A DNA stretch of 15,506 nt. It comes from a virus. Its lineage: Duplodnaviria > Heunggongvirae > Uroviricota > Caudoviricetes. This document shows, piece by piece, positions 12,879 through 15,506 of this stretch (position 1 is its first letter; every line of letters starts with the position of its first letter). The notes beneath the pieces are model-generated. The model made no database searches and was not told the DNA's origin. It saw only the letters and a list, made by a program, of their open reading frames with translations. A program made the position numbers and the translations under genes. The stretch lies in IMG/VR virus record IMGVR_UViG_2700989487_000004. One strand, given 5' to 3'.

Positions 12879-14977
12879 AACCATCCTCCGGAAGTCAGCC
12901 AGGGGTTAACATCGTCAGTTACTGTTTTCTTCCGTTTTTGTTTTTTAACAGGCGTGGATACCGGTTCCGGTGTGGGTGACGGTTCGGTACTGTCCGGGAC
13001 ACACTCCAGCCAGGTTTCCCGGCTCGCCCACTCCGGTGCATCCGGCCAGCGGATCTTTTCGTATCCATGCAGAATGACCGGAGCCTCGGCATACACCATC
13101 AGGTCAAAAGCTTCGTTGGCACCGCGACCCGGCTTACTCCATTTCCCGTCACTGCTCCGCTCTTCATACGTCAGTTCGTCGTAAAACCAGCTCCCCAGCC
13201 AGTCAGGGAAATGCACATAGCCGGGACCTGGCGAGTCACGCCATAACGCGTTATTCACCCGGTCTTTCAGGGCATCCGTCTGAAGAAGCCAGAGCGGTAC
13301 ATCACCTGCGGCCTGCGCCCGTCGGCCCGTTCGTCCGGTGTTATCAGGGAATGTACGGGTGATCAGTTTTGCGCGCCGGATGCTGTCGCCCTTAAACAGG
13401 TAAATACGTTTACCAAGGCCATCACGACGGCAACGACGCCAGAATTTATAGGCATTATCAGTGACTCCGTCTTCACCGCCGGAGTCCACCGCCATTGCCA
13501 TCAGTCGCATTTGTTGAGAAGGATCGGAGGCCAGCGGCCAGCTTTTATGAAAAACATCCGTCAGCAGGACATCCCAGTCTTCCGGATAGCTGGCCGGATC
13601 AATTCGCTGGCTCTCCCCGTCGCTGTCACCGCGCAATGACTGCGTGATGTTGTAACGATCAATAATCCAGCGTTCGCCACGGCTGCCATAGCCCGTTACC
13701 TGAACCACAAAACGGCGATGACGTCCCGCCTGCACATCAACTGTCGCCACCAGGAAATTAACGCCATCCGGCACACTGCGGGAAGGAACTGGCTCTGCCC
13801 GCTGCTCAAGCAGTTCACTTTTTCGTTGCTCCATGCTGGCACGGGGAAGATAAGGTAATCCCCAGTCGGTATTGATAACCGTCTTGAGTGTTTCTTCACT
13901 TCCGGTTGTCTCGTATTCCTGTTCTGCAGCAAGCAGTTTGTAAACGAGTTGCGAGAGTGTCTGGTAAGCAGCTGCCGGACCCTCCATCCAGAATGACGCA
14001 ATACGTGAGCGTCGGGGATCACCATAACGACTGCCATCCGCATTGATGGATTCACCATCCCGCAACCAGACCCCACGTCCGTTCAGCTCACGTTTTTGTT
14101 CAGGCATAATCCGTCCTGAACAGGAAGGACACTGAATATAAGCCGCCTCACTTGCCAGCACGGGATCGGCAATATCACGGAAACCAGCAACCACATCGCC
14201 GCAGGGCTGAAAATACTCACCACAGTGTGGACAGGGCCAGTACCAGCGACGGCGATCGCCACGGTTATAGAGCGACAGTATCCCCGTGGTTGGTGGAGCC
14301 TCATGCGGTGAAGTCCGTCGCCATTTCACATCCTTCACATCCCTGCCGGGGGAACTCTCCACCAGCGTCATACCACTGGACATAAATGTGGTGGTACGTT
14401 TTGAGGCAAGAGAGAAGGCATCCCCCTCGCCATCAATATCTTCCGGAAAACGGTCATAATCCGTCAGCGCCACGCATTTATAATCTGATGAGGACATGAT
14501 ATTGACTGACGGCCAGCCGATTTTCAGGTAGTTGCCAGCAAGGAATGTTCTGTCATAAACGTTGTTGTCATTTTTGTTCGGACTCAGGCGACTGACCACT
14601 TCCGGGCTGACGCGAAACGTTCTGGCAAGTCGTTTTTTGGAGTGTTCGCGGGCTTTTTCCTCCGTCATCTGAATGATCAGCATATCAGCAGGATCGCAAA
14701 TCACGTTGTAAATCACCCAGCCGTCAATCAGGCCGATAGTCTTGCCAGTTCGTGCCGGGCCAACAAATATCACTGCGTCGTATTCACGCGAGGCCAGGCA
14801 GTTCATCGGCTCAATAACATACGGTGCCACCAGCGGATCCCACGGGACTGAGTTCCCGGCCCCCATGGGCACCCGCATATACTGAGCAACGGCATCAGCA
14901 ACCCGCATTCGTCTCGGTGCGCGAAGGATATAACCTGAATCGGTTCGTGCTGCCTTTGCGGTTTCCTGATTCAGCAT
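12875..14977 (-). CDS. Terminase large subunit (GpA family)
   Basis: 700-aa ORF with Walker A-like VGPARTGKT and a CPHCG zinc-ribbon-like motif as in lambda gpA; strong AGGAGG upstream of the ATG. Confidence 0.88.
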   Translation of the reverse strand: MLNQETAKAARTDSGYILRAPRRMRVADAVAQYMRVPMGAGNSVPWDPLVAPYVIEPMNCLASREYDAVIFVGPARTGKTIGLIDGWVIYNVICDPADMLIIQMTEEKAREHSKKRLARTFRVSPEVVSRLSPNKNDNNVYDRTFLAGNYLKIGWPSVNIMSSSDYKCVALTDYDRFPEDIDGEGDAFSLASKRTTTFMSSGMTLVESSPGRDVKDVKWRRTSPHEAPPTTGILSLYNRGDRRRWYWPCPHCGEYFQPCGDVVAGFRDIADPVLASEAAYIQCPSCSGRIMPEQKRELNGRGVWLRDGESINADGSRYGDPRRSRIASFWMEGPAAAYQTLSQLVYKLLAAEQEYETTGSEETLKTVINTDWGLPYLPRASMEQRKSELLEQRAEPVPSRSVPDGVNFLVATVDVQAGRHRRFVVQVTGYGSRGERWIIDRYNITQSLRGDSDGESQRIDPASYPEDWDVLLTDVFHKSWPLASDPSQQMRLMAMAVDSGGEDGVTDNAYKFWRRCRRDGLGKRIYLFKGDSIRRAKLITRTFPDNTGRTGRRAQAAGDVPLWLLQTDALKDRVNNALWRDSPGPGYVHFPDWLGSWFYDELTYEERSSDGKWSKPGRGANEAFDLMVYAEAPVILHGYEKIRWPDAPEWASRETWLECVPDSTEPSPTPEPVSTPVKKQKRKKTVTDDVNPWLTSGGWL

Positions 14978-15178
14978 TACTCCTCCTGCTGTAATTCCTC
15001 CTCATCATCCGCACCTGCTTCGGTCACCCGCAGGGCTATCTGATCGCGCAGATCATCAATAATGGACTGAACACGGCTCACAGCGGCAGGCTGCAGGCCG
15101 CAGTCACGTTCCAGAATATCCGGTAATGTCTCCAGCACCTGCACGACCGCTTTTGCCCAGATGGCAAACTCCCGTCTG
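14977..15178 (-). pseudogene. Terminase small subunit gene, 3' remnant only (~66 C-terminal codons); 5' part replaced by the IS insertion
   Basis: Minus-strand frame open from the IS boundary reads ...RREFAIWAKAVVQVLETLPDILERDCGLQPAAVSRVQSIIDDLRDQIALRVTEAGADDEEELQQEE and stops at a TAA overlapping the terminase-large ATG (TAATG); no start codon before the IS inverted repeat at 15179. Confidence 0.6.
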
Positions 15179-15506
15179 TGAACCGCCCCGGAAATCCTGG
15201 AGACTAAACTCCCTGAGAAAGAGGTAAACAGGATGACTAAAAATACTCGTTTTTCCCCCGAAGTCCGTCAGCGGGCGATTCGTATGGTTCTGGAAAGTCA
15301 GGATGAATATGACTCACAGTGGGCGGCAATTTGTTCCATTGCCCCAAAGATTGGCTGTACGCCGGAGACTCTGCGTGTCTGGGTTCGCCAGCATGAGCGG
15401 GATACCGGGAGTGGTGATGGTGGACTCACCACCGCTGAACGTCAGCGTCTGAAAGAGCTGGAACGTGAAAATCGTGAACTGCGCCGCAGTAACGATATCC
15501 TTCGCC
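15179..15506 (+). mobile_element. IS3-family insertion sequence, IS629/IS1203-like, left end (inverted repeat + orfA); continues past the window end
   Basis: Terminal sequence TGAACCGCCCCGGAAATCCTGGAGACTAAACTCCCTGAG starting with TG at 15179, followed by an orfA-type reading frame; recognised from memory as IS629-like. Confidence 0.7.
15233..15506 (+). CDS. IS3-family transposase OrfA (helix-turn-helix / leucine-zipper protein), partial
   Basis: ATG at 15233 preceded by GAGAAAGAGG; translates [91 protein letters not shown], open to the window end. Confidence 0.75.

What the first reader, a model, noticed from the sequence alone, without database searches (positions are those of the whole stretch)
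14977..15506. IS3-family (IS629-like) insertion cuts off the terminase small-subunit gene
The reading frame that ends at the TAATG overlap with terminase large is open only back to 15178, where an IS inverted repeat (TGAACCGCCCC...) begins. Only ~66 C-terminal codons of the presumed small terminase remain, with no start codon. Without a small subunit the prophage should be unable to recognise and package its own DNA, so this looks like a defective prophage fixed by IS insertion, or the edge of an IS-mediated deletion that removed the early region.
Basis: partly seen in the sequence, partly recalled or inferred. Interest (0 to 1): 0.7.

Follow-up and report, generated by a model that had tools for sequence, protein, structure and literature searches.

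The report
IS629-type insertion truncating prophage small terminase
A common E. coli jumping gene (an IS629/IS1203-type insertion sequence) has landed in the small-terminase gene of a lambda-like prophage and removed its DNA-recognition half, an ordinary and well-documented way for prophages of Shiga-toxin-type E. coli to become defective.

Summary
On the minus strand, 14980-15177 encode the last 66 residues (98-163) of a 163-aa DUF1441/PHROG-141 small terminase. Its stop overlaps the start of an intact gpA-type large terminase (TAATG). Similarity to about 1,390 E. coli genomes and to viable phages stops exactly at 15178. From 15179 the window is the left inverted repeat and the first 91 orfA codons of a 1310-bp IS3-family element of the IS629/IS1203 type, 328/328 identical to copies in O103:H2 and O45:H2 genomes.

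The lost part is the predicted winged-helix DNA-binding domain, so the gene is dead.

Window 1-15178 is 100% identical to a prophage at yjjG/prfC in O145:H28 complete genomes. There a different IS629 variant sits 2 bp away in the opposite orientation and bridges a deletion of the whole early, lysis and cos region. The window's own junction occurs in none of 5,426 complete genomes, so it is an independent insertion. Whether it is a simple insertion or a deletion edge cannot be decided from the window.

IS disruption of a small-terminase gene in EHEC prophages is already published (Sakai Sp4), and that prophage was still packaged in trans. Already known; low interest.

The parts
12875..14977 (-). 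Intact large terminase (gpA type, 700 aa). Its ATG overlaps the stop of the truncated small-terminase gene.
   Evidence: ORF list. Pfam GpA_ATPase 8.6e-72 and GpA_nuclease 7.8e-85. PHROG 15. 25% identity to lambda gpA, E 4e-19. The identical sequence is annotated without a pseudogene flag in strain 95-3192.
14977..15178 (-). 3' remnant of the small-terminase (terS, DUF1441) gene: stop codon at 14977-14979, 66 sense codons at 14980-15177 (residues 98-163), and base 15178, the last base of codon 97.
   Evidence: Pfam DUF1441, 46.1 bits against a cut-off of 35.1, profile positions 96-146 of 147. PHROG 141 'terminase small subunit', 5.1e-28, profile positions 111-176. Alignment with the intact gene.
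14977..15144 (-). Mechanical 55-aa ORF that starts at an internal in-frame GTG of the remnant. Probably not a real gene.
   Evidence: Called by gene finders in many assemblies. PHROG 6039 is made of this fragment. No promoter-like site nearby.
15178..15179 (.). Phage/IS junction (...CCCGTCTG | TGAACCGCC...).
   Evidence: This exact junction is absent from complete E. coli genomes, species-representative genomes, IMG/VR, JGI metagenomes and the phage collection.
15179..15203 (+). Left terminal inverted repeat (IRL) of the IS. 25 bp, matching the IRR at 22 of 25 positions; the first 13 bases TGAACCGCCCCGG are shared by both ends.
   Evidence: Comparison with both ends of a full copy that is identical over the shared 328 bp, in O103:H2 12009, and with the O145 and O157 copies.
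15233..15506 (+). 5' part of IS orfA: 91 codons, an HTH transposase N-terminus, cut by the end of the window.
   Evidence: Pfam HTH_Tnp_1 1.7e-12. NCBIfam NF033516 IS3 family transposase, profile positions 1-79. The frameshift site, the AL1L pseudoknot and orfB would lie beyond 15506 (offsets).
15179..15506 (+). First 328 bp of a 1310-bp IS3-family element (IS629/IS1203 type), transcribed opposite to the phage late genes.
   Evidence: 100% identity over 328 bp to copies in O103:H2, O45:H2 and other genomes. 4 mismatches to the O157:H7 IS1203 copies and 17 to the O145 copy resident at this locus.

Best explanation
A 1310-bp IS3-family insertion sequence of the IS629/IS1203 type transposed into codon 97 of the small-terminase gene (terS, a DUF1441 protein of 163 aa) of a lambda-like prophage. 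IS3-family elements move by copy-out-paste-in through a circular intermediate. The IS lies antisense to the late operon, with its left end (IRL) abutting the retained 3' part of terS.

The insertion separates the predicted N-terminal winged-helix DNA-binding domain and the first long helix (residues 1-97) from the C-terminal helical part (98-163). Only the C-terminal part is left next to an intact gpA-type large terminase and an apparently intact head-tail module. The terS gene is therefore inactivated.

By analogy with lambda Nu1, the prophage can no longer supply its own cos-recognition subunit. It could be packaged only if it still has cos and a co-resident phage supplies a compatible TerS.

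This insertion is separate from the one fixed in O145:H28 and some O157:H7 genomes. That one is 2 bp away, in the opposite orientation, and involves an IS copy that differs at 17 of 328 positions.

Shown here: the identity of both partners, the exact breakpoint, the loss of the N-terminal domain, and the independence of the event. Inferred: the loss of packaging specificity. Unknown: what lies beyond the IS.
For: - Breakpoint and remnant.
- terS identity: Pfam DUF1441 and PHROG 141. Intact homologues annotated as terminase small subunit are the first gene after cos and overlap TerL in viable phages such as mEp460, phi458, Ayreon and Gifsy-2.
- IS identity. A full copy identical over the shared 328 bp is 1310 bp long, has a 3-bp TSD, a programmed frameshift and an AL1L pseudoknot.
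- Independence from the O145/O157 insertion.
- Junction not seen elsewhere.
- Rest of the late region intact: window 1-15178 is a perfect match to genomes whose annotation carries no pseudogene flags there.
- Precedent: Sakai Sp4 nu1 disrupted by an IS (PMC2669165).
Against: - The right end of the IS and any target-site duplication lie outside the window, so 'insertion' as opposed to 'one junction of a rearrangement' is not proven.
- Loss of packaging is not absolute: Sp4 was packaged in trans.
- The source genome is unknown, so co-resident helpers cannot be assessed.
Confidence: 0.9

Rival explanations
1. Simple insertion. Beyond the 1310-bp IS come a 3-bp duplication (CTG on the window's + strand), then codons 1-97 of terS, cos, the lysis genes and a complete early region. 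The prophage would be whole apart from the IS.
For: Simple insertions of the same IS type into this gene exist with clean duplications: L009 and five complete O157:H7 genomes (GTC), F8492 (GGA), L007 (GTCG). The window's IS is not the copy resident in O145 (17 of 328 differences, other orientation, 2-bp offset). This is most simply explained by insertion into a still-intact terS.
Against: All of the roughly twenty complete O145:H28 genomes that match the window perfectly over 15,178 bp have the early region deleted. The predicted product of the reciprocal junction (residues 1-97 plus SEPPRVSWRVFYL) is not on record among about 15 billion proteins. The reciprocal junction is in no complete genome.
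Confidence: 0.5
2. Deletion or rearrangement edge. The IS joins the terS remnant to unrelated DNA, and the 5' part of terS, cos, the lysis genes and the early genes are gone, as in the O145:H28 complete genomes.
For: In strain 95-3192 and relatives the identical late region is joined through one IS to a DUF551 early-left gene next to int. There is no duplication (flanks ...CTGAC and TTTACC...) and no cos, lysis, Q, replication or immunity genes. [quoted passage not shown]
Against: The window's junction is not the O145 junction. Homologous recombination between IS copies cannot change which IS end abuts a flank. This reading therefore needs a separate insertion followed by a separate deletion in a lineage otherwise identical to O145:H28.
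Confidence: 0.4
3. A second IS inserted 2 bp from the IRR of the IS already resident in O145, giving two copies head to head separated by CTGAC.
For: It would reconcile the perfect identity to O145:H28 prophages with the different junction. Some IS3-family elements are known to target sequences next to their own ends (IS911; from my own knowledge, not tested here).
Against: The result would be a 1.3-kb, roughly 96% identical inverted repeat with a 5-bp spacer. Long palindromes of this kind are unstable in E. coli (established knowledge). No such structure exists in the complete genomes.
Confidence: 0.05
4. Assembly artefact: a chimeric join of an O145-type prophage contig to an IS from elsewhere.
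For: The window looks like a short-read contig bounded by repeats, with gene J cut at codon 184 on the left and an IS on the right. The IS variant is typical of O103:H2/O45:H2 rather than of the O145 locus.
Against: The join falls exactly at the terminal TG of the IS and lacks the AC present in the O145 junction. A k-mer path cannot create that. It is the signature of real transposition.
Confidence: 0.03
5. The C-terminal stub (55-66 aa) is expressed and functional, for example as a TerL-binding decoy that interferes with packaging by related phages.
For: The stub keeps the translational-coupling overlap with TerL. Independent events in many genomes leave the same C-terminal piece. In lambda the C-terminus of Nu1 binds gpA (established knowledge).
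Against: No promoter-like site or native start. The pattern is equally expected from neutral decay combined with IS target preference.
Confidence: 0.02

Closest known systems
IS629 / IS1203 (IS3 family) copies of EHEC genomes
   Same: The first 328 bp are 100% identical to annotated IS3-family elements in O103:H2 12009 and others, and 98.8% identical to PGAP 'IS1203 family' copies in O157:H7. The TG...CA ends, the orfA HTH and the 1310-bp length with a 3-bp duplication are seen in the full copy. According to the literature 62% of IS629 copies in O157 lie in prophages (PMC3271280).
   Different: Only the left 25% of the element is in the window. This particular insertion site and orientation is not found in any of the collections searched.
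Sakai prophage Sp4: nu1 (small terminase) disrupted by ISEc8 (Asadulghani et al. 2009, PMC2669165)
   Same: An IS interrupts the small-terminase gene of a lambdoid EHEC prophage whose large terminase is intact.
   Different: The IS family differs (IS66-type ISEc8 against IS3-type). Sp4 keeps cos and was shown to be packaged in trans. For the window neither cos nor helpers are known.
Prophage at yjjG/prfC of O145:H28 complete genomes (e.g. 95-3192, RM9872)
   Same: The late region is identical base for base over 15,178 bp. terS is cut at the same codon by an IS629-type element.
   Different: In O145 the IRR, not the IRL, abuts the remnant. The junction is 2 bp further (..CTGAC|TGAACC). The IS copy differs at 17 of 328 positions, and the IS bridges a deletion to a DUF551 gene.
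Lambda gpNu1 and other cos-phage small terminases
   Same: The gene sits directly upstream of, and overlaps, a gpA-type TerL, and is the first gene after cos in relatives. It has a predicted N-terminal winged-helix domain followed by helical oligomerisation and TerL-binding parts.
   Different: No detectable sequence similarity to Nu1. The family is Pfam DUF1441 and has not been characterised experimentally.

Membership tests
IS3 family (IS629/IS1203 type) | Terminal inverted repeats that begin 5'-TG and end CA-3' | tested here: met
   The IRL at 15179-15203 starts TGAACCGCCCCGG. The IRR is outside the window. In the full copy identical over the shared 328 bp (O103:H2 12009) the right end reads ...CCCGGGGCGGTTCA.
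IS3 family (IS629/IS1203 type) | orfA encoding an HTH protein at the left end | tested here: met
   15233-15505: Pfam PF01527 HTH_Tnp_1 1.7e-12. NCBIfam NF033516 IS3 family transposase, profile positions 1-79 of 369; the score is below the whole-protein cut-off because only 91 codons are present.
IS3 family (IS629/IS1203 type) | orfA-orfB fusion by -1 programmed frameshift giving a DDE transposase | not testable with these tools
   The site lies beyond 15506. Copies with an identical left end are annotated with a programmed frameshift and an AL1L pseudoknot that starts 281 nt after the ATG.
IS3 family (IS629/IS1203 type) | 3-4 bp target-site duplication | not testable with these tools
   The right end is outside the window. 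Sister insertions show GTC, GGA, GTCG and TTT.
IS3 family (IS629/IS1203 type) | Nucleotide identity to the ISfinder reference IS629 / IS1203 | not tested
   ISfinder is not available here. As a proxy, the segment is 98.8% identical to PGAP-named IS1203-family copies and 100% identical to 'IS3 family' copies.
Small terminase of cos phages (DUF1441 / PHROG 141) | Sequence match to the family profile | tested here: met
   Remnant: DUF1441 46.1 bits (cut-off 35.1) and PHROG 141 5.1e-28. Intact allele: 150 bits and 2.7e-77.
Small terminase of cos phages (DUF1441 / PHROG 141) | Gene directly upstream of and overlapping TerL; first gene after cos | tested here: met
   TAATG overlap at 14975-14979. 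In mEp460 the gene occupies 1-519 and TerL 519-2621 of a linear genome.
Small terminase of cos phages (DUF1441 / PHROG 141) | N-terminal DNA-binding (winged-helix) domain present | tested here: not met
Small terminase of cos phages (DUF1441 / PHROG 141) | Binds cos DNA and stimulates TerL | not testable with these tools
   No experimental study of a DUF1441 protein was found. The function rests on position, annotation and predicted fold.

The most novel reading that the evidence does not exclude
Codon 97 of this terS gene could be a recurrent site of IS629 insertion and excision, and EHEC lineages could be repeatedly, perhaps selectively, disarming the packaging-specificity subunit of this prophage family while keeping TerL and the C-terminal TerL-binding stub. 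The basis is four observations:
- insertions in both orientations 2 bp apart (the window against O145/O157);
- an identical junction carrying IS copies that differ by 4% in O145 and O157;
- further insertions at codons 66 and 108;
- a 1-bp deletion immediately next to the GTC duplication site, fixed in 74 complete genomes (mostly O157:H7), which could be an IEE excision footprint.
Probability: 0.08. Interest if true: 0.45.

Novelty: already known. Interest (0 to 1): 0.13.

Why it matters
It matters little beyond strain typing. IS629-type insertions are the main source of small structural polymorphism in EHEC, and most of them lie in prophages. IS disruption of a small-terminase gene has been described, together with evidence that such 'defective' prophages can still be packaged by neighbours.

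The practical value is twofold. This junction (…CCCGTCTG|TGAACCGCC…) is a lineage marker not present in any complete genome searched. And the prophage cannot be assumed either inert or mobile without knowing whether cos survives and whether a compatible TerS is present in the same cell.

Tried and rejected
- Exact-junction scans of species-representative genomes, IMG/VR and JGI metagenomes found nothing. Megablast of junction-spanning queries against 5,426 complete E. coli genomes and against the phage collection found no identical junction.
- Look-up of the 33-aa ORF that spans the junction: not on record.
- Search for the predicted reciprocal junction in DNA and for its predicted 110-aa product among about 15 billion proteins: not found. 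So 'simple insertion' could not be confirmed.
- BLASTP of the intact TerS against lambda Nu1 gave no alignment. PDB sequence search gave only chance-level hits.
- Promoter and terminator scan of 14800-15506 found nothing, so there is no sign of an IS-flank hybrid promoter. The Rfam scan found nothing real.
- In-place inversion of the O145 IS, or IS-IS recombination, was considered and rejected as the origin of the window junction. Neither can remove the AC dinucleotide, neither explains the 17 of 328 differences, and IS-IS recombination also cannot change which IS end abuts the flank.
- Ooka et al. 2009 (PMC2765283) is not held in the library. The O145:H28 genome papers that were searched do not discuss this locus.
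Full report
**What is at the coordinates.** The window is the late (head-tail) region of a lambda-like prophage on the minus strand. It holds tail genes, tape measure, major tail protein, a ClpP-protease/capsid fusion, portal, a 70-aa W-like gene and a 700-aa ORF at 12875-14977. That ORF is a gpA-type large terminase: Pfam GpA_ATPase 8.6e-72, GpA_nuclease 7.8e-85, PHROG 15, and 25% identity to lambda gpA. Its ATG (14975-14977) overlaps the TAA (14977-14979) of an upstream minus-strand frame as TAATG.

That upstream frame, 14980-15177, matches Pfam DUF1441 (46.1 bits, cut-off 35.1, profile positions 96-146 of 147). 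It also matches PHROG 141 'terminase small subunit' (5.1e-28, profile positions 111-176 of 183).

**The breakpoint.** A four-way alignment with an intact allele and two other IS-disrupted alleles shows identity up to window 15178 and none beyond. A junction-specific query (69 bases of flank plus 20 of IS) matched about 1,390 complete E. coli genomes. Except for 24, all matches end at query base 69, which is window 15178. The same holds for isolated phages such as Ayreon, phi458, mEp460 and PhiR40_1. The intact sequence continues ACATCACTGG, while the window continues TGAACCGCCCC, so the breakpoint is unambiguous.

Two details in the finding need correcting. The frame stays open by chance through the IS end up to a stop at 15268-15270. 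An internal in-frame GTG at 15144 gives a 55-aa ORF, which gene finders routinely call and which even forms its own PHROG, 6039. I found no promoter-like site and no reason to think the ORF is functional.

**The inserted element.**
- 15179-15506 is 100% identical over all 328 bases to elements annotated 'IS3 family transposase' in 80-odd records, mostly O103:H2, O45:H2 and related STEC.
- It is 98.8% identical (4 mismatches, all at 15410-15432) to the PGAP 'IS1203 family' copies of O157:H7.
- A full copy in O103:H2 12009 that is identical over the shared 328 bp is 1310 bp long. It is flanked by a 3-bp duplication (TTT), ends ...GGTTCA, and is annotated with a programmed frameshift and an AL1L pseudoknot.
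- In the window, 15179-15203 is the IRL. It matches the IRR at 22 of 25 positions, and the first 13 bases are common to both ends.
- orfA starts at 15233 (PF01527 1.7e-12; NF033516 profile positions 1-79) and is cut by the window end after 91 codons.
- The element is transcribed opposite to the phage late genes.

ISfinder itself could not be consulted.

**Is the cut gene really the small terminase?** There is no detectable similarity to lambda Nu1 or to any PDB sequence, and DUF1441 is formally uncharacterised. The assignment rests on three lines of evidence.
- Position. The gene lies directly upstream of, and is translationally coupled to, a gpA-type TerL. In plaque-forming phages such as mEp460 it is the first gene of the linear genome, at 1-519, with TerL at 519-2621.
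- Family annotation: PHROG 141, and more weakly PHROG 57, both 'terminase small subunit'.

The part removed in the window (residues 1-97) is thus the predicted DNA-recognition domain plus the first long helix. The part kept is the C-terminal helical region, which in lambda Nu1 contacts gpA (established knowledge, not tested here).

**Context from related genomes.** Window 1-15178 is a perfect match (28,029 bits, no mismatch) to at least eight complete O145:H28-type genomes, and nearly perfect to a dozen more. In strain 95-3192 this prophage lies between yjjG and prfC. It consists of int, two small genes, a DUF551 gene, one IS3-family element, the terS remnant, then TerL through the tail fibres. 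Cos, the lysis genes, Q, and the replication and immunity genes are all missing. The IS there has no target duplication (flanks ...CTGAC and TTTACC...).

The junction in those genomes is not the window's, however. In O145 the IRR abuts the remnant, the phage sequence runs 2 bp further (..CGTCTGAC|TGAACC), and the IS copy differs from the window's at 17 of 328 positions. The same junction as in O145 occurs as a simple insertion with a GTC duplication and an intact terS 5' part in draft contig L009. Five complete O157:H7-type genomes carry a matching reciprocal junction.

The window's own junction is absent from all 5,426 complete E. coli genomes, from the species-representative genomes, from IMG/VR, from JGI metagenomes and from the phage collection.

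**How the window junction arose.** Homologous recombination between IS copies, or inversion of the resident IS, cannot delete the AC dinucleotide. Recombination between IS copies also cannot change which IS end abuts a flank. The window is therefore an independent transposition event.

A second IS inserted next to the resident one would create a 1.3-kb near-perfect palindrome with a 5-bp spacer, which should be unstable in E. coli. I rate that at about 5%. An assembly chimera cannot create a join exactly at the terminal TG while dropping two bases (about 3%).

What lies beyond the IS is undetermined. It could be a simple insertion into a still-complete prophage (about 50%) or a separate deletion edge (about 40%). 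I looked for the predicted reciprocal junction and for its predicted 110-aa product and found neither. This is weak evidence, because the source assembly may not be in those collections.

The window itself looks like a short-read contig bounded by repeats. Its left end cuts gene J at codon 184, and its right end is inside the IS.

**Consequences.** The terS gene is dead. The remaining late genes are identical to copies annotated without pseudogene flags. By analogy with lambda, the prophage cannot supply its own cos-recognition subunit.

In O157 Sakai the prophage Sp4 has nu1 disrupted by ISEc8, yet its DNA was found in DNase-resistant particles. The authors attribute this to the terminase of Sp14, which shares an identical cos (PMC2669165). 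Whether this could happen here depends on whether cos survives and on co-resident phages, and both are unknown. In O145 RM9872 the terS 3' segment occurs only once (H71), so no near-identical helper copy exists there.

**Side observations.** The 492-bp gene carries IS629-type insertions at four or more distinct positions in different strains:

| Allele | Codon | Orientation relative to late genes | Target duplication |
|---|---|---|---|
| F8492 | 66 | antisense | GGA |
| L009 / O157 / O145 | 97 | sense | GTC |
| window | 97 | antisense | unknown |
| L007 | 108 | sense | GTCG |

In addition, 74 complete genomes, mostly O157:H7, carry a 1-bp deletion (AGTGA-GTCAGAC) immediately next to the GTC duplication site. 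It frameshifts terS and explains why the 55-aa ORF is so widely called. [quoted passage not shown] The deletion may therefore be an excision footprint, and the site may be a local hot spot. This is a hypothesis only. According to the literature 62% of IS629 copies in O157 lie in prophages anyway (PMC3271280).

**Verdict.** This is a known IS in a known gene of a known prophage type, and the phenomenon, including IS-disrupted small terminase and trans-packaging, is published. Novelty: already known; only this particular junction is unrecorded. Interest is low (0.13).

Noticed in passing
L001 3482-4791; L004 21010-22319 (O145:H28 RM9872, 95-3192): The prophage that is base-for-base identical to window 1-15178 is, in complete O145:H28 genomes, a remnant at yjjG/prfC. 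One IS629-type element (opposite orientation, 2 bp offset, no target duplication) joins terS codon 97 to a DUF551 early-left gene. Cos, lysis, Q, replication and immunity genes are all missing.
   Followed up: yes
L010 5960-5966 (also L011-L014); 74 complete genomes, mostly O157:H7: A 1-bp deletion (AGTGATGTCAGAC to AGTGAGTCAGAC) lies directly beside the GTC target site of the IS insertion. It frameshifts terS. It may be a footprint of IEE-mediated IS629 excision.
   Followed up: partly
terS gene in L002 (F8492), L009, L007 and the window: Four distinct IS629-type insertion sites fall within one 492-bp gene: codons 66, 97 (both orientations, 2 bp apart) and 108, with duplications GGA, GTC and GTCG. 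This could reflect target preference or simply tolerated decay.
   Followed up: partly
L009 4656-5964 versus L001/L005 IS copies: O157-type and O145-type genomes share exactly the same IS/terS junction and orientation, but the IS copies differ by about 4% (95.6-95.9% identity). This means either two independent insertions at the same nucleotide or replacement of the IS body by recombination with another copy.
   Followed up: no
window 15410-15432: The only four differences between the window's IS and the O157:H7 IS1203 copies are clustered in 23 bp of orfA. This variant is 100% matched in O103:H2/O45:H2-type genomes and their plasmids, and no O145 genome is among the 45 identical matches listed. 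The IS variant and the prophage therefore point to different lineages.
   Followed up: partly
window 1-553: The window starts inside tail-tip gene J (ATG at 553, minus strand; 184 codons present). With the IS at the other end, both window ends are in repeated sequence, as expected for a whole short-read contig.
   Followed up: partly
window 14977-15144 (-): PHROG 6039 (55-position profile, 'unknown function') matches this 55-aa ORF end to end (4.8e-37). PHROGs 5710 and 21782 likewise cover only parts of the intact terS. These database 'families' appear to be built from fragments of a disrupted terS gene.
   Followed up: no
window 9186-11405 (-): The head protease (ClpP-like) and major capsid protein are encoded as one fused ORF (675 aa in the annotation of identical genomes), as in mEp460- and cdtI-type phages. 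This is ordinary for this phage group but differs from lambda's C/Nu3/E arrangement.
   Followed up: no
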